This document shows, piece by piece, positions 4,497-54,422 of a stretch of DNA of 64,000 nt (positions are counted from its first letter, which is position 1; every line of letters starts with the position of its first letter). The stretch comes from Ostreococcus lucimarinus (lineage: Eukaryota). The stretch lies in NCBI GenBank assembly GCA_000092065.1, contig CP000585.1; one strand, written 5' to 3'. Position numbers and translations under genes: made by a program. The notes beneath the pieces were generated by a model, which saw nothing but the letters and a program-made list of their open reading frames with translations, had not been told where the DNA came from and ran no database searches.

Positions 4497-4771
4497 TCGT
4501 CCGACGAAGCGCTCCTTTATCCTCGGAGCCGTCGTCGCGACGCCGCAGAGACGACGTCCCGCGTCGACGATCGTCGACGCCGCTCGCGCGACGCGCGCGC
4601 CGCGCCGCACCGCGCCCGCGATAAATTTACTTTCATCAATAAGCGCGCCCACGGCCGCATTTTACGCTGTAACACCGACGTCTCCGGTCACGTTTACGCC
4701 TCGCCGCGAAACCGCTCTGGAAAACGCTCCGCCGCGCGCCGGCGCCTCCGCAGATCCTCGCGCGCGCCGCC

Positions 4772-5194
4772 ATGGATCGCCTCATGCGCGACCTGCGCGA
4801 TCTAGACGACGACATACGGCAAAACGCGAGCGCGTCGGCGTCGCCGTCCTCGCCCGCGCGCGCGTCCGCGCGTCGTCGCGGCGCGTCGCCGTCGTCGTCG
4901 AGCGGGGTCAAGTCCAAGTCGGGGACGCCCGAGCCCACGAGCGCGCTCGCGCCGCGCACGCCCGCGCGCGACGCGACGTACGACGGACCGTGGTCGCCGG
5001 TCCCGTGCGCGACGCTGCGCGACGCGCGCTCGGCGCTGGAGACGGCGGCGCGGGAGCTGAGCGCGCTCGAGGCGACCGAGTTGGCGCGCGCGAACGCGAG
5101 CGGAGCGCTGCGAGCGCCGCGAGGGAAGAGCGTCGACGCGAGCGAGCGCGTCGCGGGGCGAACGGCGACGCGCGGCGCGGCGCTGGGACGGTAG
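4772..5194 (+). CDS. hypothetical small protein (weak)
   Basis: ATG-initiated 140-aa ORF in a GC-rich spacer with no recognisable domain. It may be a compositional artefact. Confidence 0.2.
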   Translation: MDRLMRDLRDLDDDIRQNASASASPSSPARASARRRGASPSSSSGVKSKSGTPEPTSALAPRTPARDATYDGPWSPVPCATLRDARSALETAARELSALEATELARANASGALRAPRGKSVDASERVAGRTATRGAALGR

Positions 5195-5329
5195 CGTCGC
5201 GCGCGCGCCATCATTTTTTGTCGCACCGACGACGGCTCGCCGCGGGGCTCGAGGCGTCGACGACTTGTAACGATACGATACCACACACACTCGCGCCTCG
5301 ACGCGCGCGGCTCGGCGGTCGACGTCGAC

Positions 5330-6118
5330 ATGGCGTCCGCGACGATGGCGTCGACCGCGTCGACGCGCGCGCGCGACGCGAGACCGCGGCGACGCGCGTC
5401 GGGACGGCGCGCGACGCGAGCTTCGGGACGCGAGCTGGCGCGAGCGTCCCGAGGCGAAAGCGACCCGGACGACGCGCGCGACGCGCCGGCGGTCGCGTCG
5501 ACGTCGCGTCGCGTCGCGTGCGCGGCGTTGCTGCTGGCGACGCGCGCCGGACGCGCGCGCGCGGCGACGGATGGATCTCGGGCGGCGCTGGAAGAGGTGC
5601 GCGCGGCGCGCGAGGACGTCGCGACGGCCAGAGCGGCGCTCGGCGACGTCGACGCGGACGCCGACGCGAGCGCGGACGCGCCGTCGGTGTCGAAGCCGTT
5701 GCCTTTGAAGGAAATCGCGGCCGCGCTGAACACGAGCGCGGTGAAGAATTTGGAGCGCAACGCCGTGGCGCTGGACGCCGTCGCGAAGGCGAGGCCGCTC
5801 GAGGACTGGGAACGCGAGGCGTGGCGAGGCGTGCGCGAGGATGAATGGTTGACGCAGAGTCAAACGACGACGCTTCCCATGGCAAAACGTCCGAATGACT
5901 TCTTGTGCTTCGTGTTCTCGTGCTACAACGATCCCAGGGCGCCGGCGAGCACGGAAGTTTTATTGACGATGCGCTTGGCCAAGGACGGCGTCGCGATGGG
6001 TCAACGGGGTGACAAGCGCATCACCGATCTCGGTCTCGCTGCGTCTCTGGATGACGTTTTAGAAAAATTAGACGCCTATTTGGCATTTGCGTCGAAATTC
6101 GTCGAAGCGGGCGAGTAG
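5330..6118 (+). CDS. hypothetical thylakoid-lumen protein (transit peptide plus twin-arginine signal)
   Basis: ATG at 5330. The N-terminus is Ala/Arg/Ser/Thr-rich. It is followed by a twin-Arg motif and hydrophobic stretch ending in AxA (TSRRVACAALLLATRAGRARA), as in Tat substrates. The C-terminal 80 aa are non-low-complexity (DFLCFVFSCYNDPRAPASTEVLLTMRLAKDG...). Confidence 0.55.
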   Translation: MASATMASTASTRARDARPRRRASGRRATRASGRELARASRGESDPDDARDAPAVASTSRRVACAALLLATRAGRARAATDGSRAALEEVRAAREDVATARAALGDVDADADASADAPSVSKPLPLKEIAAALNTSAVKNLERNAVALDAVAKARPLEDWEREAWRGVREDEWLTQSQTTTLPMAKRPNDFLCFVFSCYNDPRAPASTEVLLTMRLAKDGVAMGQRGDKRITDLGLAASLDDVLEKLDAYLAFASKFVEAGE

Positions 6119-6133
6119 GATTGATGCGGGTCG

Positions 6134-7681
6134 ATGGCGTCGCGTCGCCGACGCCGTCGCCGACGCCGACGCCGACGGTTAATATCACGAGACGCGCCTC
6201 TGTACGACACATCCACGCGCGCGAGCGCGCGCGATTTCGAACACACAGCGATGTTTGAAGTTCTAAACGTTCCTCTCGCGTTCGCGTTCGCGTGCTTTCG
6301 TCCGAAACGAATGAGCAAACCGACGACGTCCCGCTCGCCGCGCCCCGCACACGCCGCCTCCGACCGGTCCTCCATGTCTCGCTCCATCGTCGTCGTCGGC
6401 GGTGGTAACGCCGCGGGCTATCTCGTCCGCGCGTTGGTGAGCGCCGATCCGACCCTGGGCGCGCGAACGCTCGTCATCGGTGCCGAGGACGTCGCGCCGT
6501 ACGAGCGTCCCGCGCTCACCAAAGGATTCCTGCACAAAGAAAGCCCGCCGCGTCTGCCCGGTTTCCACACCTGCGTCGGCGGCGGCGGCGAGCGACAAAC
6601 GCCAGAGTGGTACGAACAGCACGGGGTGGAACTGAGGCTGAACACGACGGTGACGGCGGCGGATTTCAAGAGCCGTACGGTGACGACGAGCGCGGGCGAG
6701 TCGATCGGCTACGAAACGTTGGTCCTCGCCACGGGATGCGGCGTCATTCGGCTTCCCGAAGCCATCGGGGGGACGTTACCGGGAGTTCACTACGTGCGGA
6801 ACAACGCCGATGGACTCGCGCTCGTGGAAGCGATGGACAAGGCGACGAAGGCGGTTGTCGTCGGCGGCGGGTACGTCGGTTTGGAAGTCGCGGCGTCGTG
6901 CGCCACGCGCGGATTGAAGCCGGAGGTGGTGATGATGGAGCCGCACGTCATGGCGAGGCTTTGGAACGCCGATATCGCGCAGCATTACGAGCGATTGTAC
7001 GAAACTCGGGGTACGACGTTTCACAGGTCGAGTAAGCTCAAGGCAATTTTGGCCGACGCCGACGGCAAGGCGCGCGGGATTGAATTAGAGTCTGGCGCGG
7101 TGATCGACGCCGATTTAGTCGTCGTGGGCGTCGGCGCGACCGCGCCCGTGCCTTTCACCGGACTGGACGCCCCCGAAGGACGCGTGGGTGGGATCAAGGT
7201 GGACTCGCGATTCCGCGCTTCTGGCGCGGACGTCGCGCCCGGTAGCGTGTACGCCATCGGCGACATCGCGGCGTTCCCACTCAAGCTCGCCGACAACGAG
7301 ATCGTCCGCATGGAACACGTCAAGCACGCGCGCGACAGCGCCACCTTGGTCGGTAACATCATCGCCGGCAAATCCGACGACGAGTACGATTACACGCCCT
7401 TCTTTTACAGTCGCGTCTTCGAGCATCCCGGCACCGAGCGCGCCGTCAACTGGGTCTTCCACGGCTTACAGCGCGGTGAAATCATCACCATAGGCAATCT
7501 CGACCCCACGCTCGCCGCGTTCTGGATTGACGACGGCAAGTGCGTCGGCATCATGCTCGAATCCGGCGCCCCCGAGCGCGTCGCCGCGCTCGCCGCCGCT
7601 GTTCGCGCCCGCAAATCCGTCGACGTCTCCGCGCTCCGCGCGTGCGCTTCCGTCGACGACGCCCTCGCGTTGGTCCTTTAA
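6134..7681 (+). CDS. MDAR: monodehydroascorbate reductase (FAD/NAD(P)-binding pyridine nucleotide-disulfide oxidoreductase) with organellar-type N-terminal extension
   Basis: IVVVGGGNAAGY (dinucleotide-binding fold) and YERPALTKGFL match the MDAR signature Y-E-R-P-A-L-S-K-G-Y-L. A second GGGYVGLE NAD fold and a C-terminal dimerisation region follow. The N-terminus contains a 14-residue poly-Arg run encoded by a (CGCCGA)n microsatellite, so the true start may be a downstream ATG. Confidence 0.88.
   Translation: MASRRRRRRRRRRRRLISRDAPLYDTSTRASARDFEHTAMFEVLNVPLAFAFACFRPKRMSKPTTSRSPRPAHAASDRSSMSRSIVVVGGGNAAGYLVRALVSADPTLGARTLVIGAEDVAPYERPALTKGFLHKESPPRLPGFHTCVGGGGERQTPEWYEQHGVELRLNTTVTAADFKSRTVTTSAGESIGYETLVLATGCGVIRLPEAIGGTLPGVHYVRNNADGLALVEAMDKATKAVVVGGGYVGLEVAASCATRGLKPEVVMMEPHVMARLWNADIAQHYERLYETRGTTFHRSSKLKAILADADGKARGIELESGAVIDADLVVVGVGATAPVPFTGLDAPEGRVGGIKVDSRFRASGADVAPGSVYAIGDIAAFPLKLADNEIVRMEHVKHARDSATLVGNIIAGKSDDEYDYTPFFYSRVFEHPGTERAVNWVFHGLQRGEIITIGNLDPTLAAFWIDDGKCVGIMLESGAPERVAALAAAVRARKSVDVSALRACASVDDALALVL
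6140..6178 (+). repeat. (CGCCGA)n / (CGACGC)n hexanucleotide microsatellite encoding poly-Arg
   Basis: cgtcgccgacgccgtcgccgacgccgacgccgacgg, translated RRRRRRRRRRRRRR at the MDAR N-terminus. Confidence 0.9.
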
Positions 7682-20353: not shown

Positions 20354-22816
20354 CTAGAGTTTGAGCTGGATGGCGACGCCGGCGTCATCGCGTCGCATGG
20401 TTTTCGTGCAGAGAGGATTTTCATCGAGCGCCGCGTCGGCGGCGGTGTGAACGATGATTTTCGCCTTGAGCGCGGACGCGGCGTTGGCCTTCTTTGCCAA
20501 AGCGATATCCGAGTCGACGTTTGACGGGACGTATTGCGCTACCATGACGGATTCAGTCCACGGCTTGAAGTTCAAGTCGACGTCGCCGTCATCGTAATCG
20601 ACGCGAAACGAATACGTGTGCGGATCGAAGGCGGTAATCGTGCCAGAGTAAAACGCGTTGTCCCGCTGCCACAGCACCACTATCCTCTGGCCTACGGCTT
20701 TGTCCTTGCGAAGCGCTAGTGTGGCGCCGATTTGACCGTGTCTCGCGAGTTCTATGATCTTCATCTGTGCGCACTTTGATTTCATCTTAGAACGACCAGC
20801 CGCGAGCTCCGACTCCGTGCCGGACGAACGCCGCGATCTCGTCTGCGGTTTGCTATCGGCCATAGCCTTGTGCGCTTCGGTGACGCACACGTCACATTCG
20901 TAACATGGCGATGGATCGGTGAAGAGATGTGCGTTGTTACGCTGCACGATTGGGTTGACGGGAGCCTCTAAATTCCTCGCATTGCACCACGCCCGTGCCG
21001 ACTCGACTGACTGCGTAAATTTCGCCTTTGAAGAAAACACAGGTTGTTTCATCGCTTCGCCGTAAAATTTGTCGAACGGATAAACTTCCGACGCTTTAAC
21101 CCATGCGAAGGATCTGCGATCGTCGAAAAAGATCACTAAACGATGATCCTCGGTGAACTTGGGGCTGAAAGCTGCAACACGTGCGCCCTCAGGGATAACG
21201 GCGTGATCCCGAAGCGGATGGAGCGCGACGCATGGCCAGTACATGGTCTTTCCTCGCACAGCTCCTTTCCATTTCACCCACGAGCACTCGCCGTGTGTCG
21301 TCATGCCATGTTCGTCTAAGTCGTTTTCGTTGTTTTCGTCTCGATGTCTCTTTTCCTTTGCAGCCTCTGTTTCTTCGCTCTCCCCCTCGTCTTCATCCGA
21401 ATCGTCGTCGTACTCATTGGCAGCTTGTTCGTCGTCTTCGGCGTCAATGTCTTCTAAAATGTCAATCTTAGACTTCTTTGATGGCGACGGCAGGGTCACT
21501 TGTGTCGAGTCACGCTTGACGTCTAACGCCGCGAGAATCGTCGAGTCAATGTTCTCGTGCGCGAGCTCGAGTCTCCGCAAGTAGCCTTCTCGAAGTTCGT
21601 ACCGCACGGGTTTGTTCTTTGTGAATTCAAGAAAATCGCCGAGCGGTGTGAAACCGCGAATGAGTGGAAACTCTGAAACTTCGTTCGGCGCGCGTTGTCG
21701 ACCTGTCCATTTCGGATCGCCGTTCACGTTGAGCATGTTGTAAGCGGCGAGCGGCCATGCCTTTGAAGATCGATCGCGCGTCGCTGGTCCCGGACACGGC
21801 TTTTCGAATGGCGTCGCCAGCGCATCGTAGGTAAATTTCACGTTGTACGGGCATTTCAACTGCTCGCCAAGCCACCGGCTTTGTGGGACGCTGCACGCCA
21901 GACCTAAGAGACTAAATCTTTTCATCGTTTGTAAATCCGTGTCGAACACCGGCGCTCGTTCGTTGGGACGCATGAGCGGATAGCAGGGTTCCGTATAACC
22001 CGGAGGAAATCCCATCAATCGTTCGGCGTCTTCTATCGCCAACATTGACAACTCAGCCTTTTGCTTTCCGATTTGGGTCGCGACACATGTACGACGTCCG
22101 TTGCTCGTCGTGAAGCAGTGCATGATATCGCAACACGGCGCTCGACGCTTCTCCCCGAGATCTATCGACGCCGAAAACATCTTTGTCGGTACTCGCGGTG
22201 GAGTGATGAAGCACTCGTAACACTCGTTGTTCATTCCCAGCTGGACGCACTCTCCCGAACACATCGCGCTCTGCGACAATAACACGTCTCGGGGATCACC
22301 GTGCAAAGATGCGACGACGAAAACGCGTCGTCGCTTATGAGGCGTCCCAAAGGACAAAAGATCGACGACGCGATACGCCCATCTGTATCCGAGATTTTCC
22401 AATTCATTGACTACGTAATCGATCGCCGGTCTCTGTTCGCCGTCGCTGTGCCACTTCAACAACCCGACGACGTTCTCGAGCAACAGCCACGGCACCCGTC
22501 TCGCCTCGAGCAAGCGAAACACGTGCGAGACGGAACGCGTGGCGCCGCCGAGCTCGAGTCCGGGTCGCTTGAGATTCTCGCAGCTGCAGTCGTTGCACGG
22601 AAACCCAGCGACGACGCAGTCGATGTTTTCGAGCATGAACGGGAGCACCTCCGCCACGTCATTGAGCAGCGCGACGCCCGGAAAGCGCGCCGAGAGGACT
22701 TGCTTGCAGTGGGCGTCGCGCTCTACCATGAGCTCTATGCGGTGGCCGGCTTGCTGGAGACCGAGATCGAGGCCTCCGACTCCGGAGAATAGGGACGCCA
22801 CGCGAAGACTCACCAT
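20354..22816 (-). CDS. DNA (cytosine-5)-methyltransferase with C-terminal PWWP-like and Tudor/Agenet-like reader domains
   Basis: ATG at 22816. Motif I LFSGVGGLDLGL, motif IV GFPCNDCS (Pro-Cys catalytic), motif VI ENV, and motifs IX/X are present. A target-recognition region with a Cys cluster follows, then an acidic linker (DAEDDEQAANEYDDDSDEDEGESEE). GKTMYWPCVALHP...FAWVKASEVYPFD is a PWWP-type aromatic cage. The C-terminus has a Tudor-like beta-barrel (GQRIVVLWQRDNAFYSGTITAFDPHTYSFRVDYDDGDV). Confidence 0.85.
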   Translation of the reverse strand: MVSLRVASLFSGVGGLDLGLQQAGHRIELMVERDAHCKQVLSARFPGVALLNDVAEVLPFMLENIDCVVAGFPCNDCSCENLKRPGLELGGATRSVSHVFRLLEARRVPWLLLENVVGLLKWHSDGEQRPAIDYVVNELENLGYRWAYRVVDLLSFGTPHKRRRVFVVASLHGDPRDVLLSQSAMCSGECVQLGMNNECYECFITPPRVPTKMFSASIDLGEKRRAPCCDIMHCFTTSNGRRTCVATQIGKQKAELSMLAIEDAERLMGFPPGYTEPCYPLMRPNERAPVFDTDLQTMKRFSLLGLACSVPQSRWLGEQLKCPYNVKFTYDALATPFEKPCPGPATRDRSSKAWPLAAYNMLNVNGDPKWTGRQRAPNEVSEFPLIRGFTPLGDFLEFTKNKPVRYELREGYLRRLELAHENIDSTILAALDVKRDSTQVTLPSPSKKSKIDILEDIDAEDDEQAANEYDDDSDEDEGESEETEAAKEKRHRDENNENDLDEHGMTTHGECSWVKWKGAVRGKTMYWPCVALHPLRDHAVIPEGARVAAFSPKFTEDHRLVIFFDDRRSFAWVKASEVYPFDKFYGEAMKQPVFSSKAKFTQSVESARAWCNARNLEAPVNPIVQRNNAHLFTDPSPCYECDVCVTEAHKAMADSKPQTRSRRSSGTESELAAGRSKMKSKCAQMKIIELARHGQIGATLALRKDKAVGQRIVVLWQRDNAFYSGTITAFDPHTYSFRVDYDDGDVDLNFKPWTESVMVAQYVPSNVDSDIALAKKANAASALKAKIIVHTAADAALDENPLCTKTMRRDDAGVAIQLKL

Positions 22817-43419: not shown

Positions 43420-43671
43420 GTTTCTGCGGTCGGCGCGCGACCGCGATAGGGTCGACGTCACGGCGATCGCGCGACCGCGGGCGCGGGCGCCGGCGAACCC
43501 GCGCGCGAGGTTGGACGCGCGGCGTCGAACGACGTCGCGTCGATCGCGCGCGCGCGGGAGTCGACTGCAGTCGACGACGCGCGGACGCGGCGCGCGCGAC
43601 GCGCGGGCGACGCGCGACGCGCGGGCGAAGGGCGAGGGGCGACGCGCGACGACGCGGCGCGCGCGGCCGCG

Positions 43672-44142
43672 ATGAAGAAGACGATCGCGCTCGCGCGCGC
43701 GCAGTTTACGAGGGATGAAGCGCTCGTCGAGAAGATTCGCGGGCGCGGGCGCGAGCGCGCGCGCGACGCCGCCGCCGACGACGACGACGACGACGACGAG
43801 GGAGAGACGGTGACGTGGACGAAAGCCGAGGTGGTTCGACTGAACGCGTACTCGAAGTACTTCCTCGCGTGGTATCTGGGAACGATCGCGGGGATCATGG
43901 GGTTCTTTGGATTTGGTTGGACCGTGTGGGGCGCGTTCTTCATCAACGTCGGGACGTACTTTTTTGAGACGATGTACTTGCGGATCGATCTGGATGAGAT
44001 CGGAGAGGGAATGGAGTTCTTCTTGGACTCTCTCGCGTCGAGTTACGGGGTGTTTGTGCTGACTTGGGTGGTGGTCGCGGAGACGCTCGGGCGCTCGCGC
44101 GCGCAGATGCCCACTCACACGATTCCGCGCTTTGGCGGGTGA
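43672..44142 (+). CDS. hypothetical small membrane protein (3 TM)
   Basis: ATG at 43672. A poly-Asp stretch is followed by three aromatic-rich helices (YFLAWYLGTIAGIMGFFGFGWTVWGAFFINVGTYFF; YGVFVLTWVVVAETL). It is divergent from the gene at 43419 (a shared ~250-bp promoter). Confidence 0.5.
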   Translation: MKKTIALARAQFTRDEALVEKIRGRGRERARDAAADDDDDDDEGETVTWTKAEVVRLNAYSKYFLAWYLGTIAGIMGFFGFGWTVWGAFFINVGTYFFETMYLRIDLDEIGEGMEFFLDSLASSYGVFVLTWVVVAETLGRSRAQMPTHTIPRFGG

Positions 44143-44288
44143 CGCGCGCGTCGACGTTCGTGGTGAGGGGTTATTTTTGTATAGCCTTGTAATTAATATA
44201 CTCGATGTTGAAACAAAATTCGTGTCGGCGCGCGTTGGAGCTGCGGTGGCGGCCGTTATTCGTACATTTCAAAGACGGAGAAACATTC

Positions 44289-45713
44289 TCATCGACGTCT
44301 GCCTCGGCGCAAACCGAGAAGAAGTTCACTAGCGTCAGAGAGCTCCGACATGCAGCTTTTCGACGCCACGAGCGAACCAGCGACAGATGGCGTGGCGCTA
44401 GCAAAACCATCGCGGTTGATTCCCGAGTGTTCTGTGCTCATGGGATTCATGTACGATCTCGCGGGGACGGTCTCCGACGCGCGCGGCTGCGGTCTCTTTG
44501 GCGATTCGTCCACTTGCGAACGTTGCAAACCGGCATTGTTCGCGCTTTTCGCTGCCGCGTTTACGACGCTTTCAAGCGCGTACGCGCCTCGAGACACATT
44601 GAGGAATCGTGCGTCTTGACTCAGACGACTGTACAGTGTGTTCGCCGGCGTCTTTCCGGCGAGCCTTACGAGCGAACGATCCTTGATCAAGCGCACCATT
44701 TCGCTCACTTGCAAACCTTCGGGGCCGGCGGTGAGTAAGAGGTGATAACACGCCTCGGAAATCGACTTGAACGGGCAATCCGTTTCGTCCGAGGTCACTA
44801 TGCCCTTGCCCGAGTCCCCGACGAAGGAGCCGCCTACGGTCATCGGCGGCTTACTCGTTGTATTCCCTGAATGATGTTCGCTCGTCGTCATCGTGCCGCC
44901 AAAGTTACTCGGCACTGCCTCGCGCTTGTAGCGCTTGGTGCTATCGCCGGCTTCACTGACGCTCATCATCGCCGCCAAGTGCTTGTACGCGGAATCTGGT
45001 CCGACAATACCACTTTCCTGCGGCGCGCCTCTCGGCGACCAACGCCCGTACGGTGACAACGTCCAACCTCTTCTAATCGACGCGTGCTTAGGCCGTGTCT
45101 TATTCCACGTCTCGCGAATCCACGATTGTCCGGTGGAGTCTTGGAACACTATCAAGGATGTATCGTTATTCACGCCAACGCCCGGAAAACAAACGACAAT
45201 TTTCCCGCGAGCGTCGGTGATTTGAGAAATATATCCTTCGCACCACCTGTTGTTGTAATGCACGTCGACCTCCTCGTTCAAGCGACGAGACGCGTCCACG
45301 GCTAGATTGTCAACTGGTGGTGTCGGGCGAACAGTACTCGACAGCGTGCTCGTGGGCAAACGAACGTTATCTGCGACACCATCGCCGCCGCCTTCCGGCG
45401 CGACGCCGAGCGTGATAAACTCCCCGTCGTTTTCGATAACCTTGGCGCTCGCCCAGGTCGCGCCGTGGGACTTGTGCGGACGCGCTACTTCTACCATTGA
45501 CCCTGGTTCGTACGCCAAGTTCACGTCAACGAGCTCCGAACCCGAACTCTTGTCACTTTCGCTCTCGCACCCGACGTAGTCCTCCGTCTCGCGACGACGC
45601 TTGCGACAAGCCGCCGCGCCCGCGAACTCAACCTCATCCGCACCCCGTCGCCCCGTCGACTCCCCGTCCAGATCGATCACTTTATACGTCGCGCGTTTGA
45701 CCAGCACAAACAT
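44289..45713 (-). CDS. chromatin-reader-like protein: tandem Agenet/Tudor-like barrels plus C-terminal HARE-HTH winged helix
   Basis: Two small beta-barrel modules (GSMVEVARPHKSHGATWASAKVIENDGEFITLGV; VDVHYNNRWCEGYISQITDARGKIVVCFPG) resemble Agenet/Tudor. The C-terminal CYHLLLTAGPEGLQVSEMVRLIKDRSLVRLAGKTPANTLYSRLSQDARFLNVSRGAYAL matches the HARE-HTH pattern (...TP..TL...LS.D.RF..V.RG.YAL). Confidence 0.65.
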   Translation of the reverse strand: MFVLVKRATYKVIDLDGESTGRRGADEVEFAGAAACRKRRRETEDYVGCESESDKSSGSELVDVNLAYEPGSMVEVARPHKSHGATWASAKVIENDGEFITLGVAPEGGGDGVADNVRLPTSTLSSTVRPTPPVDNLAVDASRRLNEEVDVHYNNRWCEGYISQITDARGKIVVCFPGVGVNNDTSLIVFQDSTGQSWIRETWNKTRPKHASIRRGWTLSPYGRWSPRGAPQESGIVGPDSAYKHLAAMMSVSEAGDSTKRYKREAVPSNFGGTMTTSEHHSGNTTSKPPMTVGGSFVGDSGKGIVTSDETDCPFKSISEACYHLLLTAGPEGLQVSEMVRLIKDRSLVRLAGKTPANTLYSRLSQDARFLNVSRGAYALESVVNAAAKSANNAGLQRSQVDESPKRPQPRASETVPARSYMNPMSTEHSGINRDGFASATPSVAGSLVASKSCMSELSDASELLLGLRRGRRR

Positions 45714-47456
45714 CGGATCTACGTTCGCGTTCGCATCGTCAGTCTTCTTGCCGAAAAATCGTCGCGCGTCCTACGTCGCCTCGCCTTCGTCGTCGTCGCA
45801 CCTTTAGACAACTGTCCGACGATCGTATTCTGCGGCGTCGCACCGCCGAGTTTCACCCCACCCGATCGCTCTCGAACAGCTCTCGTGATCTCTTTCACCT
45901 ATCGTCGCCCGTCGCGCGTCGCGCGTCGCGTCGTCAGTCTCGCGTTCGCCTCGGCGCGTCGACATCGCGGTCCGTGTGCGTGTACAGTCTCACACCGGCC
46001 CCCGTCCGCGCGGGGATACCCCCGTCGTCGCCTCGCGCGCGCACCGTCAGGCCCTGTTCCCCCGCCGCGCGCAGTGCGTCGTAACACGCGCGTTTGATCG
46101 TCCCCTCGCGGAACCGCGACGCCATTCTCGTCGCCGCGCCGCGCGCACGCCCTCGCGAATCCACGGTCGTTCGCGTCGTTCGCGACGCGATTCCCGTCGA
46201 CGAATCCGGCGCGCCGCGACGCGCGCGCGACGCGCGCGCGCCCGATCGCGCGAGATACGCGCGGTAGAGAATACGATCGAAGTCGTCGACGCGAACGAAG
46301 GCGCTCGCCGCGATCGCGCGACGCGCGAAACGCGCGTGCGAGTGCGGCGCGCGGTGCATTTCGGGCGCGCCGACCCCGTCGCGGTCGTCGAGTCCTGACT
46401 CGTCCGAGAAAATCTCTCGCGCGCGCGCGTGCCGAGCCGACAGCGCGCGCGCGCGCGCGACGCCGCGACGGCGCGCGCGGCGCGTCGATCGCGCGGCGAC
46501 GCGCGATGATGATCGCGTCGTCGATCGAACGCGGGCGAGACGGCGCCGCGACCGCGCCCGCGCGGGGAGCGGGCGTCGATCGCGCGCTCGCCCTAGAATT
46601 CCGACATTGGCACCGCACGGGGCGCTATGGGACGCAGTCGGATCCGACGCATCCGCGCGCGACGCGGCGTCGTCGCGATCGCGATCGACGTCGCGCGACG
46701 ACATCCCGCGAGCGTAACATTCGCGCGCGCGTCCGCGCGCGCGATCGTCGCGTTCGCGCGTCGCGCGACGCGTCGCGACGCGCCGAACGCCTCGACCGAC
46801 CGCGTCCGCGAGCGCGCGGCCGCGACGCGACGTCCGCGCGTCGCGCGCGCGTCGCCGCGCGCGATCAAGCGCGCGTCGCGCCGCATTCGCGCGCGCGAAT
46901 TAATCCCCGATCGCGCGCGCGCGCGTCGGGCGTCGTCGTCGCGCGTCGCGCGCCGCGCGCCCGCGCGCGCGCGTCGCGACGAGTCCCGATGGGCGCGCGC
47001 GGGCGCCCATCGCGCGAAATTGCAAAAAATACTCGACGTTTCGAATTCTCGTACGCGCATTCAGTGAGACGATGCGAACCGTTGCGAATCGCGAAAACAC
47101 GGCGGATGTCGTCGGGCGCGATGGACGACCGACCGCGCTCCAGGGGTGGCGCGCGTCGCGTCGTCGGCACTAAACCACGCGCGATGTCTCTCGCGAACGA
47201 GCTCGCGATGAAGTCCGCGGTCGCGTCTCGCGCGATCGCGACCAAGGTGCGCGCGACGGCGGCGCGCGCGCGCGAACGGCGGCGCGATCGGCGCGCGATG
47301 GCGCGCCATCGTCGACGCTTCGATCGGATACGTCGAGACGATCGGACCGCGAGGACGACGCGCGCGCGGTCGGGACGACGCGCGATCGCGCGGGGTGGTT
47401 GGAGCGAGCGTCGCGGGATGTGTAGAGACTGACGGTGGAGCACGCGCGCGCGCGCG

Positions 47457-50012
47457 ATGGATGAACAGACGATGAAGAGGACGAAGAGCGCGAGAGGGGC
47501 GCCGCGAGGCGCGCGCGCGGCGGCGAAGCGCTCGGAAGACAGCGAAGAGGTCGAGGGCGGCGCGCTGAAGCGCATCGTCGCGGCTGGTACGGTTGCGTTT
47601 TCCGTGCTCGCGGGCGTGGAGGGGGCGATCGAGCCGGCGCGCGCGGCGGGCTCGGCGACGGAGATCGTGCAACTCGCGCTCGACGCCGTCGACCCCGTCG
47701 AGGACCCTGACGCCAAGGCTGAAGCGCCCGAGCGAGTCAAGGCGGATACTTCCTCGCTCGAGGGTGCGCTTAAGGCACAAGTGCAGTCGCGAAAGTCGAC
47801 GGTGAAGGAAGCGGGTAAGAAAGCGGCCAAGGCTGCCGCCGCGCCGGCGAAGAGCGGCGCGCCCGAAGGCGCCATGTCTCCGAACGCGAAGGATTACAAG
47901 TCTGAAATCGGCGAAAGCCTCGCTACTCTGGATTATGACGCCATTATCAAGAAGACGGACGACTATTTTGTCTACCGCTACGATCGCGGCATCGATGAAT
48001 CTCAAATCATCGATCTCGACGACGAAGACGACTCTGCGACGCGCGGTCCGAAGGGCACGAAGAAACGAGTCGCGGTGGCCAAGTCCACCACCGCCCCTTC
48101 GTTCACCTTGCCGAGCTTCACCGCGCCGAGCTTCGATGCGCCGAGCTTCTCGATTCCGACGTTTGAAGTGCCGAGCATCGAAATTCCGGCTATTCCGGGT
48201 GTAGCCGAACCGGCGACCAAGAAGGACACCTCCGCCGAAGACGCCGCGAAGGCTGACGCCGCGGCCGCGAAGAAGGCCGAGGCCGAGGCCGAGGCTGCGA
48301 GGAAGGCCGAGGCCGACGCCGCGACCGCCAAGAAGGCCGAGGCCGACGCCGCGGCCGCCAAGAAAGCTGACGCTGAAGCCGCCAAGAAAGCTGACGCCGA
48401 AGCCGCCAAGAAGGCCAAGGCTGACGCTGAAGCCGCCAAGAAGGCAGCGGCGGAAGCCGCCAAGGCTGAAGCTGCCGCGAAGAAGGCTGAAAGCGCGAAG
48501 AAGCCGATGGCTGCCGCCCCGGCCGCCGGTAGCAGCGATCTTGGTTTCGATTTCGGCTCTCTCTCTCAATACATGGAATCCGCTCCGGCGGCGCCGAAGG
48601 TTGACAAGAAGGCTGAAGCCGCCGCTAAGAAGGCTGCCAAAAAGGCCGCTGCTGAGGCCGCGAAGAAGGCTGCCGAGGAAGAAAAGAAGGCCGCCGCTGC
48701 CGCGAAGGCCGCTGCGAAGGCTGCTCCGAAGCCGATGGCTGCCGCCCCGGCCGCCGGTAGCAGCGATCTTGGTTTCGATTTCGGCTCTCTCTCTCAATAC
48801 ATGGAATCCGCTCCGGCGACGCCGAAGGCACCGAAGGCTGACAACGCGTCCGCCGCCGCTGGTCAAAAGGCTGCCGAAAAGATCGCCAAGCAACAGAAAG
48901 AAGCCGCCAAGAAGGCTGAGGCCGCCGCGAAGAAGGCTGAGGCCGCCGCGAAGAAGGCTCAAGCGCAAGAGGAAGCCGCCGCCGCGCGCGCCGCCGCCAA
49001 GGCTGAGATGGCCGCGAAGAAGGCGGCCGGGAAATCCGCTGAGAAACCGACTTACAGCAAGCGCACTGTTGAAAAGAAGGCGAAGCCGACGTTCACGAAG
49101 TCTGCCAGAGATGGTAAGTTCGCTCCCTTCGCTGGGACTTACAAGACGACCGTCGTCGAGAAGGAGGCCCTCCCGGGCGTGCCCGTCGACTTCGATGCCA
49201 TCGTCGACGCCCAAGAACCCAAGGCGGAAGCGATTCTCGCCAAGGCCAACGATAAATCTGGCGATTTCTTGAACATTTCCGGTGAAGCTGGCTTCGCCAT
49301 CGCGGGTACGATTGCGTTGGTTTACGAGACGGAGGACAAGAAGTTCCGCGAGCAAGCGAAGAATGCCAAGATGCCGGCGCCGACGAAGACGAATGCTCCC
49401 TCCGGTGAAAGCACCACCGAAGGTTGGTTCGATGCAGCGCTCAAGAAATACATGAACAAAGATGGTTCCGCCCCGAAGCCAAAGCCCGTCGCCGCCGCGC
49501 CGAAGCCGGTCGCCGCCGCGCCGAAGCCGGCCGTGCCGAAGTCTGATCCGGTGAAGAACGCCAAGGAGGCGCAATCGTGGATGGACAAGTGGTCCGCGAG
49601 CAAGCCTAAGCCGGCTGCCGCCGCGGCGCCGGCGCCGGCGCCTGCCGCGCCGAAGCCCGCGGCGCCGAAGTCTGATCCGGTGAAGAACGCCAAGGAGGCA
49701 CAGTCGTGGATGGACAACTGGGAGCGCAAGGTCAAGCCGACCGCCGCCGCCGCGCCGACGCCGGTCGCCGCGCCGGCGCCGACGCCGGTCGCCGCGCCGG
49801 CGCCGACGCCGGTCGCCGCGGCGCCGAAGCCCGTCCCGACGCCGACGGTCTCGACCACCACCACTCGCACGGTCACCTCGGACAACCTGACGGCCGAGCA
49901 ACGCGCCGCCGCCGAAGCCTGGCTCAAGAAGTGGCGCGAGGACGGTCGCCCGACGGACGAGACCAAATTCGACGAGGCCAAGACGTGGTTGAAGCAGCAC
50001 AACTTCGACTGA
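47457..50012 (+). CDS. Ala/Lys/Pro/Glu-rich internally repetitive protein of unknown function
   Basis: ATG at 47457. Long KKAAEAEAAKKA low-complexity tracts. Two 90-nt nucleotide-identical copies encode KPMAAAPAAGSSDLGFDFGSLSQYMESAPA (48501..48590 and 48729..48818). Two ~57-nt copies encode PKSDPVKNAKEAQSWMD (~49536 and ~49666). An (APTPVA)3 repeat follows, and the C-terminus is non-repetitive (AWLKKWREDGRPTDETKFDEAKTWLKQHNFD). Confidence 0.7.
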   Translation: MDEQTMKRTKSARGAPRGARAAAKRSEDSEEVEGGALKRIVAAGTVAFSVLAGVEGAIEPARAAGSATEIVQLALDAVDPVEDPDAKAEAPERVKADTSSLEGALKAQVQSRKSTVKEAGKKAAKAAAAPAKSGAPEGAMSPNAKDYKSEIGESLATLDYDAIIKKTDDYFVYRYDRGIDESQIIDLDDEDDSATRGPKGTKKRVAVAKSTTAPSFTLPSFTAPSFDAPSFSIPTFEVPSIEIPAIPGVAEPATKKDTSAEDAAKADAAAAKKAEAEAEAARKAEADAATAKKAEADAAAAKKADAEAAKKADAEAAKKAKADAEAAKKAAAEAAKAEAAAKKAESAKKPMAAAPAAGSSDLGFDFGSLSQYMESAPAAPKVDKKAEAAAKKAAKKAAAEAAKKAAEEEKKAAAAAKAAAKAAPKPMAAAPAAGSSDLGFDFGSLSQYMESAPATPKAPKADNASAAAGQKAAEKIAKQQKEAAKKAEAAAKKAEAAAKKAQAQEEAAAARAAAKAEMAAKKAAGKSAEKPTYSKRTVEKKAKPTFTKSARDGKFAPFAGTYKTTVVEKEALPGVPVDFDAIVDAQEPKAEAILAKANDKSGDFLNISGEAGFAIAGTIALVYETEDKKFREQAKNAKMPAPTKTNAPSGESTTEGWFDAALKKYMNKDGSAPKPKPVAAAPKPVAAAPKPAVPKSDPVKNAKEAQSWMDKWSASKPKPAAAAAPAPAPAAPKPAAPKSDPVKNAKEAQSWMDNWERKVKPTAAAAPTPVAAPAPTPVAAPAPTPVAAAPKPVPTPTVSTTTTRTVTSDNLTAEQRAAAEAWLKKWREDGRPTDETKFDEAKTWLKQHNFD
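48501..48818 (+). repeat. intragenic segmental repeat: two 90-nt identical copies (48501..48590; 48729..48818) separated by 138 nt
   Basis: Both copies read aagccgatggctgccgccccggccgccggtagcagcgatcttggtttcgatttcggctctctctctcaatacatggaatccgctccggcg. Identity extends to synonymous positions. Confidence 0.9.
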
Positions 50013-53732: not shown

Positions 53733-54422
53733 TCACGACGCGCGCCGCGCGTCGCCGGACGCGAACGGCACCGTGGGATCCACCGTCGGCTCGCCGAGCA
53801 ACACCTCCGCGGGCACGAACGCGGGCGCGCCGTACCCTTCACCGCCGTGGATGAAATCCGACCCGAACAAAAAATACGTCGCGCAAAACACCACCGATAT
53901 CGCCGCCACGAACGGGCCGAACCCGAGAAACACCGCGAATCCCGTCTTGAGCAGTTCCGTCGCGCGCGCCGGAAATCCCTCCAGCCCCTCGCTCTGCAGC
54001 GCGCGCGACCGCGCGAGCTGATCGCTCTCGTCCGCGCGTCGCGGCGCGCTCGGATTCGGCGCGAACCGCGGCGGTTTCGGCGCGTCGCTCGCGCCGTCGC
54101 GATCGAACGGGTTCGGATTCGCTCGCGTCGTCGACGCGCGCGCGCCGCCGCGTCTCGCCACCTCGTCCGCGAACGAGCTCGACAGCCCGTCGTCGCCGTC
54201 GGTCGCGCCTCGGTCGTCGTCATCGTCGTCGTCGTCGTCGCGCGCGCTCGATCGCGCGTCGTCCGCGTCCGCGCGTCGTCGCGCGTCGCGAATCCGCGTC
54301 GACGGCCGTCGCGTCGCGAATCCGCGCTTTCGCGTCGCGAATCCGCGCGCCGTTACTCGGCGCGTCGACGCCGCGGGCGTCGCGCGCGACGTCGACGCGC
54401 GCGCCGTCGTCGTCGCGCGCAT
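53733..54422 (-). CDS. hypothetical protein (weak): Ala/Arg/Asp-rich N-terminus plus C-terminal TM segment
   Basis: Only the C-terminal ~90 aa look protein-like (ELLKTGFAVFLGFGPFVAAISVVFCATYFLFGSDFIHGGEGYGAPAFVPAEVLLGEP). The rest is compositional. Confidence 0.3.
   Translation of the reverse strand: MRATTTARASTSRATPAASTRRVTARGFATRKRGFATRRPSTRIRDARRRADADDARSSARDDDDDDDDDRGATDGDDGLSSSFADEVARRGGARASTTRANPNPFDRDGASDAPKPPRFAPNPSAPRRADESDQLARSRALQSEGLEGFPARATELLKTGFAVFLGFGPFVAAISVVFCATYFLFGSDFIHGGEGYGAPAFVPAEVLLGEPTVDPTVPFASGDARRAS

What the first reader, a model, noticed from the sequence alone, without database searches (positions are those of the whole stretch)
45714..47456. 1.7-kb CpG-saturated stretch without a convincing gene in an otherwise gene-packed region
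Spacers elsewhere are 60-350 bp. Here 1.7 kb of ~75-80% GC, CG-dinucleotide-dominated sequence (long CGCGCG runs; Arg-rich ORFs in all six frames) separates two divergent genes. Candidates are missing 5' exons of the flanking genes, a non-coding RNA locus, or a CpG-island-like regulatory or insulator block. The last is relevant given the C5-methyltransferase in the window. One antisense ORF (45934..46704, minus) ends with a winged-helix-like segment (GTIKRACYDALRAAGEQGLTV), which would fit an upstream exon of the Agenet/HARE gene.
Basis: seen in the sequence. Interest (0 to 1): 0.5.

Follow-up and report, generated by a model that had tools for sequence, protein, structure and literature searches.

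The report
Gene 5' end plus CpG-rich promoter
The 'empty' 1.7-kb CpG-rich stretch is the spliced 5' end of an already annotated Ostreococcus lucimarinus gene, followed by about 1.1 kb of non-coding CpG-rich divergent promoter and leader DNA; this composition is found at every head-to-head gene gap nearby, so only the length is unusual.

Summary
The window is Ostreococcus lucimarinus. In detail: 45714-47456 has 72% GC, 0.26 CpG per base and CpG o/e 2.0, and it is the longest CpG-dense block in the window.

About a third of it is not gene-free. The RefSeq model XP_001417941.1 and ten spliced RNA-derived contigs place the 5' end of the HARE-HTH gene here, on the minus strand:
- 5' UTR 46126-46345, with a template-switch-oligo-tagged 5' end at about 46343-46345
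- exon 1 coding part 46045-46125
- intron 1 45899-46044
- exon 2 45802-45898
- intron 2 45719-45801

The remaining 1.1 kb (46346-47456) is non-coding:
- Two other Ostreococcus-like species show no protein or DNA conservation there, while the flanking short exons are conserved.
- There is no codon periodicity.
- Population variants include 1-2-bp indels.
- Shuffled sequence gives equally long ORFs.
- There are no Pfam or Rfam hits.

Its composition matches every other head-to-head gap nearby. Tail-to-tail gaps have 41-56% GC. The stretch is therefore a CpG-rich divergent promoter with leaders.

Only its length stands out, and the syntenic spacer is also long (about 1.9 kb) in both other species. 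Interest is low.

The parts
45719..45801 (-). Intron 2 of the HARE-HTH gene (83 nt, GTGCGA...CGTAG)
   Evidence: Absent from all ten spliced RNA-derived contigs L019-L028. Coordinates were read from the sequence. The ortholog in L016 lacks this intron and reads straight through as ...GQLSKDPTFVLVKR.
45802..45898 (-). Exon 2 of the HARE-HTH gene (VKEITRAVRERSGGVKLGGATPQNTIVGQLSK plus the first base of the next codon)
   Evidence: Present in RefSeq XP_001417941.1 and in the RNA contigs. It is 84-94% identical at protein level in L012 and L016.
45899..46044 (-). Intron 1 of the HARE-HTH gene (146 nt, GTGCGC...GATAG)
   Evidence: Spliced out in L019-L028. Junctions were read from the sequence.
46045..46125 (-). 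Exon 1 coding part (MASRFREGTIKRACYDALRAAGEQGLT), the start of an N-terminal HARE-HTH winged-helix domain
   Evidence: The peptide maps to 46042-46125. Pfam HARE-HTH matches residues 8-73 of the spliced protein, profile positions 1-68 of 71, spanning all three exons. It is conserved in L012 (E 3e-10) and L016 (E 1e-9).
46126..46345 (-). 5' UTR of the HARE-HTH mRNA; 5' end at about 46343-46345
   Evidence: Contigs L020, L021 and L028, from three sequencing runs, begin with the SMART template-switch oligo (...TGGTATCAACGCAGAGTACGGGG) joined directly to genome positions 46343-46345. The UTR contains no upstream ATG.
46346..47115 (.). Hypervariable, CpG-saturated, non-coding core: the upstream region shared by the two divergent genes. 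A/T-richer patches lie at about 46380-46410 and 47017-47080.
   Evidence: There are 27 variant events in 770 bp (35/kb), including +2, +1, +2 and -2 bp indels, against 4.9/kb in HARE exon 3. There is no tblastn or blastn conservation with L012 or L016 and no codon periodicity. Its hexamer spectrum is the same as in the other head-to-head gaps.
47116..47456 (+). Low-polymorphism segment, inferred to be the 5' leader of the 851-aa gene. It carries 5 upstream ATGs, and an ORF in frame with the main ORF stops at 47430-47432.
   Evidence: Only 2 variant events in 341 bp (5.9/kb); P = 0.002 for so few if the spacer rate were uniform. It begins just 3' of the A/T-rich patch. No transcript evidence was obtained, so this is an inference.
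47457..50012 (+). Ala/Lys-rich repeat protein gene (851 aa), the divergent neighbour
   Evidence: The ORF is. Orthologs at 43-48% identity sit in conserved synteny. N-terminal conservation starts at about 47470-47535.

Best explanation
The interval is the head-to-head junction of two Ostreococcus lucimarinus genes. Its left third (45714-46345) belongs to the HARE-HTH/Agenet-like gene on the minus strand. Transcription starts at about 46345. A 220-nt leader without upstream AUGs precedes the start codon at 46125. Two short GT-AG introns (146 and 83 nt) split the N-terminal winged-helix (HARE-HTH) domain across three exons. These steps are shown directly. The other two thirds (46346-47456) are non-coding. 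A roughly 770-bp polymorphic core of CGCGCG/GCGCGA/CGTCGC-type sequence carries an A/T-richer patch near each end, and these patches are the likely core promoters. The core is followed by a roughly 340-bp low-polymorphism segment that is most likely the leader of the 851-aa gene, with a start site near 47100; this step is inferred. The extreme CpG content is not specific to this locus. It is the compositional signature of gene 5' ends and divergent promoters in this genome, and this is simply the longest example in the window. The long ORFs are a by-product of stop-codon-poor composition.
For: Species and gene model: the 474-aa ORF is in the same 90% cluster as XP_001417941.1 (O. lucimarinus CCE9901, 535 aa). 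That model's extra 61 N-terminal residues map to 46045-46125 and 45802-45898.
Transcripts: ten RNA-derived contigs are spliced exactly as the model predicts, and three carry a template-switch oligo at 46343-46345.
Domain test: HARE-HTH profile positions 1-68 of 71 match residues 8-73 only in the spliced protein.
Orthology: synteny is conserved in L012/L014 and L016. Only HARE exons 1 and 2 and the N-terminus of the 851-aa gene are conserved within the interval, and L016 lacks intron 2.
Non-coding status of 46346-47456: frame-GC range is 0.01-0.12, against 0.14-0.30 in the flanking coding sequence. The indels are 1-2 bp, and there are truncated ORF variants of 147, 235, 120 and 106 aa in the population. 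Variant density is 4.8 times that of coding sequence (P = 3e-7). Shuffles give ORFs as long as the real ones. There are no Pfam hits and no Rfam or tRNA hits.
Generality: head-to-head gaps have GC 0.74-0.79 and 0.28-0.32 CpG/nt, while tail-to-tail gaps have GC 0.41-0.56 and 0.07-0.18 CpG/nt. There are 18 CpG blocks in 64 kb.
Against: No transcript evidence was obtained for 46346-47456, so the start site and leader of the 851-aa gene are inferred only from polymorphism density and the position of the A/T-rich patch. That putative leader has 5 upstream ATGs, which is unusual for an efficiently translated mRNA. The spacer is 2-4 times longer than the other head-to-head gaps nearby (329-781 bp). 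It is also long (about 1.9 kb from HARE exon 1 to the first conserved codons of the big gene) at the syntenic site in two other species, despite no sequence conservation. A plain promoter does not obviously explain that. A weak codon-like GC periodicity (0.17-0.21) at 46180-46479 is unexplained.
Confidence: 0.85

Rival explanations
1. Compact bidirectional promoter with a very long leader. In this reading the 851-aa gene starts close to the HARE start site (about 46400-46600), and most of 46346-47456 is its roughly 0.9-1 kb 5' UTR, possibly with a UTR intron (for example the candidate AAG|GTGCGC at 47248 paired with TGTAG| at 47422).
For: The interval is head-to-head, and such start sites often lie close together (general knowledge of bidirectional promoters). 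A 5' splice-site-like AAG|GTGCGC matching the HARE intron 1 donor is visible in the sequence. No data place the second start site.
Against: Variant density in 46346-47115 (35/kb) is far above that of the mapped HARE UTR (13.6/kb), the introns (8.6/kb) and 47116-47456 (5.9/kb). That fits untranscribed DNA, which mutates faster in Mamiellophyceae (PMC5455958). Such a leader would carry 11 upstream ATGs. In all three species the A/T-rich patch lies about 400-600 bp upstream of the start codon, as expected of a core promoter there.
Confidence: 0.12
2. An independent non-coding RNA gene, or a promoter-associated lncRNA, lies in the core. This would explain why a long spacer is kept in three species.
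For: The spacer is long at the syntenic position in three species. It is not excluded by any transcript data.
Against: No Rfam match reaches E < 0.05 in the window interval or in either orthologous spacer, and nothing in the whole window reaches a gathering score. There is no sequence conservation. Polymorphism and indels are high. Folding energy is no better than shuffles (z = -1.9 from only 20 shuffles for the core; +0.6 and 0.0 for the leaders).
Confidence: 0.06
3. An unannotated, fast-evolving Arg-rich protein gene, for example the 308-aa ORF at 46506-47432 (+) or the 256-aa ORF at 45934-46704 (-).
For: Long ATG-initiated ORFs exist, and automatic callers call them on metagenome contigs.
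Against: Shuffles give equally long ORFs. No Pfam hit was found. No cross-species protein similarity was found, although neighbouring exons of 27 and 32 codons are detected. The population carries frameshifting +1, +2 and -2 indels and truncated versions. There is no codon periodicity. The ATG of the 256-aa ORF (46704) lies upstream of the mapped mRNA 5' end at 46345. The longest ORFs lie on different strands in L012 and L016.
Confidence: 0.02
4. A composition-defined chromatin or structural element beyond promoter function. Candidates are an unmethylated island or insulator, a Z-DNA-prone sink for negative supercoils between divergent genes, a replication origin, or a recombination / GC-biased gene-conversion hotspot.
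For: There are 13 alternating-CG runs of at least 10 nt against 5.4 +/- 2.0 expected; that is 19% of the window's runs in 2% of its length. Spacer length and CpG enrichment are retained in three species without sequence conservation. Polymorphism is elevated. O. lucimarinus methylates CG in nucleosome linkers (Huff and Zilberman 2014, as cited in PMC5728721), and a C5-methyltransferase gene lies at 20354-22816.
Against: The same composition and hexamer vocabulary occur at every head-to-head gap, so nothing singles this one out except length. No methylation, MNase, Hi-C or origin data could be examined here.
Confidence: 0.1

Closest known systems
RefSeq gene model XP_001417941.1 / ABO96234.1 (UniRef100_A4RX64, 'HTH HARE-type domain-containing protein', O. 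lucimarinus CCE9901)
   Same: The spliced product of 46125...44289 (minus strand) is in the same 90% cluster as this 535-aa protein, and its extra N-terminal 61 residues map to the exons located here. The spliced RNA contigs L019-L028 each translate to exactly this 535-aa protein.
   Different: Nothing material in the protein. This work adds the mRNA 5' end (about 46345) and population and ortholog support.
Vertebrate CpG-island and bidirectional promoters
   Same: It is a GC- and CpG-rich block that spans the start-site region of head-to-head genes. It coincides with 5' ends and is absent from 3' ends. It passes the formal length, GC and o/e thresholds.
   Different: The genomic background here is not CpG-depleted: o/e is 1.6-1.7 even in coding DNA. 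The island is therefore an excess over an already CpG-rich genome, not a refuge from deamination. The methylation state is unknown. The block is highly polymorphic rather than conserved.
Linker-restricted CG methylation system of Mamiellophyceae (DNMT5; Huff and Zilberman 2014, as cited in PMC5728721 and PMC9861306)
   Same: It is the same organism, and dense CpG is the substrate of that system.
   Different: No methylation data were examined. The methyltransferase ORF in this window (20354-22816) matched only Pfam DNA_methylase and a Tudor-like domain. The DNMT5 features (SNF2 ATPase, per my own knowledge) were not found in that ORF and were not searched for elsewhere.

Membership tests
5' exons of the HARE-HTH gene | The spliced product reconstitutes a complete HARE-HTH (PF05066) domain | tested here: met
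   Residues 8-73 match profile positions 1-68 of 71 (E 7e-19 for the whole protein) and span all three exons. A second HARE-HTH stretch lies elsewhere in the protein.
5' exons of the HARE-HTH gene | Canonical GT-AG introns that are removed in transcripts | tested here: met
   Ten RNA-derived contigs lack 45899-46044 and 45719-45801. The GT and AG dinucleotides were read in the sequence.
5' exons of the HARE-HTH gene | Exons conserved in orthologs at the syntenic position | tested here: met
   Exon 1 gives E 3e-10 and 1e-9; exon 2 gives E 2e-14 and 1e-14 in L012 and L016.
5' exons of the HARE-HTH gene | The mapped mRNA 5' end lies upstream of the start codon with no earlier AUG | tested here: met
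   Template-switch-oligo junction at 46343-46345; no ATG in the 220-nt leader.
Protein-coding gene inside 46346-47456 | Cross-species amino-acid conservation | tested here: not met
   No tblastn hit with E < 0.1 in any frame between 46155 and 47390, in any of the three species pairs.
Protein-coding gene inside 46346-47456 | Frame-preserving polymorphism and codon periodicity | tested here: not met
   Indels of +2, +1, +2 and -2 bp, truncated ORF variants and a frame-GC range of 0.01-0.12.
Known structured RNA family (Rfam 15) or tRNA | Covariance-model match at or near the gathering score | tested here: not met
   The best hits are miRNA models at 22-25 bits against gathering scores of 67-100. 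Nothing in the whole window reaches a gathering score. No tRNA was found.
CpG island (Gardiner-Garden and Frommer type criteria; from my own knowledge) | Length > 200 bp, GC > 50%, CpG o/e > 0.6 | tested here: met
   1743 bp, GC 0.72, o/e 2.02. The criterion does not discriminate here, because the whole window has o/e 1.68.
CpG island (Gardiner-Garden and Frommer type criteria; from my own knowledge) | Stands out from a CpG-depleted, methylated background and is itself unmethylated | tested here: inconclusive
   The background is not depleted (coding o/e 1.59), so that half of the definition fails. The methylation state cannot be tested with these tools.
Bidirectional (divergent) promoter | Head-to-head genes with no intervening gene | tested here: met
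   No gene was found in between.
Bidirectional (divergent) promoter | Start sites less than about 1 kb apart | tested here: inconclusive
   One start site is mapped at about 46345. The other is only inferred near 47100, which would give about 770 bp.
Z-DNA-prone tract | Alternating purine-pyrimidine (CG)n runs of at least 10-12 bp | tested here: met
   There are 13 runs of at least 10 nt (longest 17) against 5.4 +/- 2.0 in shuffles. Formation in vivo cannot be tested here.
Insulator or boundary element | Blocks chromatin contacts or enhancer action | not testable with these tools
   No Hi-C or functional data are accessible. The O. tauri Hi-C preprint reports boundaries only at outlier-chromosome regions.

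The most novel reading that the evidence does not exclude
The roughly 770-bp untranscribed, CpG-saturated and hypervariable core could be a composition-defined chromatin element rather than just promoter DNA. It is kept as a long (about 1.3-2 kb) CpG-enriched spacer at the same syntenic junction in three Ostreococcus species with no sequence conservation. It might be an unmethylated, nucleosome-excluding or Z-DNA-prone block that absorbs negative supercoiling between divergent genes. It might also be a recombination / GC-biased-conversion hotspot or a replication origin.
Probability: 0.1. Interest if true: 0.55.

Novelty: new member of a known kind. Interest (0 to 1): 0.17.

Why it matters
Mostly it does not: the 'missing gene' is the already annotated 5' end of the neighbouring gene, and the rest behaves like an ordinary, if long, divergent promoter. 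Two modest points are useful. First, CpG-dense blocks in this genome mark gene 5' ends and head-to-head gaps but not tail-to-tail gaps. That gives a simple compositional cue for gene orientation and warns that six-frame ORFs in such blocks are artefacts; automatic callers on metagenome contigs do call them. Second, one promoter spacer is 2-4 times longer than its neighbours and is kept long in three species while evolving fast. That would be worth a look in existing bisulfite and MNase data.

Tried and rejected
Several lines of enquiry gave nothing or were rejected.
- Pfam on six ORFs of the interval: no hits.
- Rfam at E <= 1 on the interval and on both orthologous spacers, Rfam at gathering scores on the whole window, and tRNA search: nothing credible.
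- Bacterial-type promoter and terminator scan: not informative for a eukaryote.
- Repeat or transposon hypothesis: blastn of the spacer against the rest of the window gives only about 70% low-complexity matches to the other CpG blocks, in both orientations. Tandem Repeats Finder finds only short degenerate CG-type arrays. Rejected as a specific repeat family.
- Secondary structure: fold z-scores are not significant.
- E2F-like TTTSSCGC sites: 2 observed against 1.0 expected, P = 0.23.
- N-terminal extension of the HARE protein from the ATG at 46704: rejected, because the mRNA 5' end is at about 46345.
- N-terminal extension of the 851-aa protein through the same-frame 308-aa ORF: a stop at 47430-47432 intervenes, and the only candidate GT-AG intron I saw does not restore the frame (read).
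- Mapping the 851-aa gene's start site from public contigs failed. The contigs retrieved are unspliced, co-linear DNA contigs. Six of them break at 46971-47015, at the edge of the GC-richest stretch, most likely from coverage drop-out.
- Huff and Zilberman 2014 is not held in the library.
- Literature searches found no prior description of CpG-rich 5' blocks, or of centromeres, in Ostreococcus.
Full report
**Identity of the window.** The 474-aa ORF at 44289-45713 (minus strand) occurs unchanged on hundreds of marine metagenome contigs. It belongs to the same 90% cluster as XP_001417941.1 / ABO96234.1, a 535-aa 'HTH HARE-type domain-containing protein' of Ostreococcus lucimarinus CCE9901. Metagenome contigs covering the locus are 98.7-99.9% identical to the window. 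The window is therefore O. lucimarinus nuclear DNA, from a compact picoalgal genome.

**Check of the observation.** For 45714-47456, GC is 0.721, CpG density is 0.262 per nt and CpG o/e is 2.02. The whole window has 0.621, 0.162 and 1.68. Pooled conserved coding sequence has o/e 1.59.
- At 0.22 CpG/nt in 200-nt windows the window holds 18 CpG-dense blocks. The block at 45990-47612 (1623 bp) is the longest and has the lowest codon-position GC contrast, 0.01.
- Alternating CG runs of at least 10 nt are enriched: 13 against 5.4 +/- 2.0 in dinucleotide shuffles.
- The '75-80% GC' figure is a slight overstatement.
- The ORFs in several frames are real but carry no information. Dinucleotide shuffles of the 1331-bp spacer give stop-free stretches of 373 +/- 61 aa, against 434 aa observed, and 27% of shuffles are at least as long.

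**The left third is the 5' end of the HARE gene.** The RefSeq protein has 61 more N-terminal residues than the ORF. These map to two upstream exons (and direct reading):
- Exon 1 coding part is 46045-46125 (MASRFREGTIKRACYDALRAAGEQGLT).
- Intron 1 is 45899-46044 (146 nt, GTGCGC...GATAG).
- Exon 2 is 45802-45898.
- Intron 2 is 45719-45801 (83 nt, GTGCGA...CGTAG).
- Exon 3 starts at 45718.

Three independent tests support this model.
1. Pfam HARE-HTH matches residues 8-73 of the spliced protein over profile positions 1-68 of 71. The winged-helix domain therefore exists only after both introns are removed.
2. Ten contigs assembled from public RNA sequencing runs (L019-L028) encode exactly the 535-aa protein and align to the window as three blocks with both introns missing.
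3. Both small exons are conserved in two other Ostreococcus-like species. One of these species (L016) lacks intron 2 and reads straight through.

Three of the RNA contigs begin with the SMART template-switching oligo (...TGGTATCAACGCAGAGTACGGGG) fused directly to genome positions 46343-46345. This marks the 5' end of the full-length cDNA. The leader is therefore 46126-46345, and it contains no upstream ATG.

**The remaining 1.1 kb (46346-47456) is non-coding.** I retrieved the syntenic locus from two other species through orthologs of the 851-aa neighbour. These are L012/L014 (HARE protein 66% identical) and L016 (63% identical).
- Gene order is the same over about 18 kb.
- Six-frame protein comparison and sensitive blastn, between all three pairs, detect only HARE exons 1 and 2 and the N-terminus of the big gene. 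Nothing is detected between about 46155 and 47390-47470.
- Codon-position GC contrast is 0.01-0.12 across the spacer, against 0.14-0.30 in the flanking coding DNA. One unexplained blip of 0.17-0.21 lies at 46180-46479.
- None of the six ORFs of the interval that were tested hits Pfam.
- Rfam finds nothing credible in the window interval or in either orthologous spacer, and no tRNA was found.
- Predicted folding is no better than for shuffles.
- Matches to the rest of the window are about 70% low-complexity hits to the other CpG blocks, in both orientations. They do not define a repeat family.

**Population variation gives finer structure.** I aligned 25 contigs to the window. Variant events per kb are as follows.

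| Segment | Variant events per kb |
|---|---|
| HARE exon 3 | 4.9 |
| Introns 1 and 2 | 8.6 |
| HARE leader (46126-46345) | 13.6 |
| Core (46346-47115) | 35.1 |
| 47116-47456 | 5.9 |
| First 744 bp of the 851-aa gene | 12.1 |

- The core exceeds coding DNA 4.8-fold (P = 3e-7).
- The drop in 47116-47456 is unlikely under a uniform spacer rate (P = 0.002).
- Indels in the core are +2, +1, +2 and -2 bp, mostly CG-unit slippage. The indel in the neighbouring coding sequence is an in-frame 9 bp.
- Versions of the 308-aa ORF truncated to 147, 235, 120 and 106 aa circulate in the population.
- Many variants are shared by several independent assemblies, so they are not assembly noise.

The fine composition profile shows two A/T-richer patches. 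One is at about 46380-46410, some 50-70 nt upstream of the mapped HARE start. The other is at 47017-47080, just upstream of where the low-polymorphism zone begins. Both other species also have an A/T-rich element 400-600 bp upstream of the big gene's start codon. In L016 it is a striking 120-bp island of 15-30% GC.

I therefore infer a second core promoter at about 47020-47080, a start site near 47100 and a leader of about 340 nt. Higher mutation in poorly transcribed intergenic DNA has been reported for Mamiellophyceae (PMC5455958) and fits the hypervariable core being untranscribed. This part is inference. I could not retrieve RNA contigs for this gene, and the contigs I did get are co-linear DNA. 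Six of them break at 46971-47015, at the GC-richest stretch. The five upstream ATGs in the putative leader count against it.

**The composition is generic.** I used cross-species conservation to define coding segments between 40 and 57 kb.
- The four head-to-head gaps have GC 0.74-0.79 and 0.28-0.32 CpG/nt.
- The two 5'-to-3' tandem gaps have 0.22-0.28 CpG/nt.
- The five tail-to-tail gaps have GC 0.41-0.56 and 0.07-0.18 CpG/nt.
- Counting gaps that contain a gene 5' end against tail-to-tail gaps gives 6 of 6 against 0 of 5 (Fisher P = 0.002).
- The top hexamers of the core (CGCGCG, GCGCGC, GCGCGA, CGTCGC, CGCGAC, CGACGC) are the same as in the other head-to-head gaps.

The interval differs from its neighbours only in length: 1409 bp between conserved coding segments, against 329-781 bp. 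The other long CpG block in the window (4504-5737) shows codon periodicity over much of its length and is probably partly coding.

**What stays unusual.** The spacer is also long in the other two species. It is about 1.9 kb from HARE exon 1 to the first conserved codons of the big gene, and it is CpG-enriched there too, although nothing in it aligns. A plain promoter does not require this. It could reflect relaxed deletion pressure, a long regulated promoter, or a composition-defined element. The alternating-CG enrichment makes the block formally Z-DNA-prone. O. lucimarinus methylates CG in nucleosome linkers (Huff and Zilberman 2014, as cited in PMC5728721), DNMT5-type enzymes occur in Mamiellophyceae (PMC9861306), and a C5-methyltransferase gene does lie at 20354-22816. 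None of this could be tested here, and nothing but length separates this block from its neighbours.

**Verdict.** About a third of the stretch is the annotated, transcript-supported 5' end of the HARE gene. The rest is a non-coding CpG-rich divergent promoter and leader region of a kind that recurs at every head-to-head junction nearby. It is a long member of a known kind, and interest is low. The most novel reading not excluded, a conserved composition-defined chromatin element, has roughly 10% probability.

Noticed in passing
window 47457-50012; L001, L017, L018, L031, L032: The 851-aa Ala/Lys-rich gene has internal repeats: two copies of about 187 nt at 48417-48828 and two at 49476-49786. 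Gene length varies in the population (736, 755, 762, 788, 843, 848 and 851 aa variants), and there is an in-frame 9-bp indel at 47686. The gene has no Pfam family and contains repeated ...SWMDKW... / ...SLSQYMES... motifs.
   Followed up: partly
L016 5700-5850 versus window 45719-45801: Intron 2 of the HARE gene is present in O. lucimarinus and in L012 but absent in L016, so an intron was gained or lost between closely related Ostreococcus species.
   Followed up: partly
L012 7815-8000: In L012 the conserved basic N-terminal stretch of the big gene (VSAKKRANASKRG...) is preceded by an in-frame stop with no ATG in between. That species may use an upstream exon, a downstream Met or a non-AUG start.
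   Followed up: no
L016 7484-7604: A sharply bounded 120-bp island of 15-30% GC sits inside an otherwise 60-80% GC spacer, about 400-500 bp upstream of the big gene's start codon. Weaker counterparts lie at window 47017-47080 and L012 7300-7400.
   Followed up: partly
window 46971-47015 and 54312-54352: Independent metagenome assemblies (L006, L007, L008, L010, L040, L041) start at 46971-47015, and two of them (L007, L008) end at 54312-54352. Both places are the GC-richest stretches (85-93% GC in 40-nt windows at the first), which probably means sequencing-coverage drop-out.
   Followed up: partly
window 43663-44289: HARE RNA contigs run 500-600 nt past the stop codon into the convergent 156-aa gene (43672-44142, weak EMC6-like Pfam hit). 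Either the 3' UTRs of the convergent genes overlap, or an unstranded assembly merged them.
   Followed up: no
window 20354-22816 (-): An 820-aa ORF has an N-terminal C-5 cytosine DNA methylase domain (E 8e-30) and a C-terminal PTM/DIR17-like Tudor domain. No SNF2 domain was found in this ORF.
   Followed up: partly
window 4504-5737: This is the second-longest CpG-dense block (1234 bp). It lies between the end of a 1490-aa ORF that has no Pfam hit and a monodehydroascorbate-reductase-like gene (6134-7681). It shows strong codon-position GC periodicity at 4760-5240 and 5480-6120, so it probably encodes an unrecognised GC3-rich gene or N-terminal extension. The four ORFs tested have no Pfam hits.
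   Followed up: partly
window 46180-46479: A weak codon-like GC periodicity (range 0.17-0.21) straddles the HARE leader and the DNA upstream of its start site. It coincides with degenerate 26-28-nt tandem repeats and remains unexplained.
   Followed up: no
window 45878: The window carries A at this synonymous site (Ala GCT), whereas all 15 metagenome contigs covering it carry C (GCG). This may be a reference-strain-specific allele.
   Followed up: no
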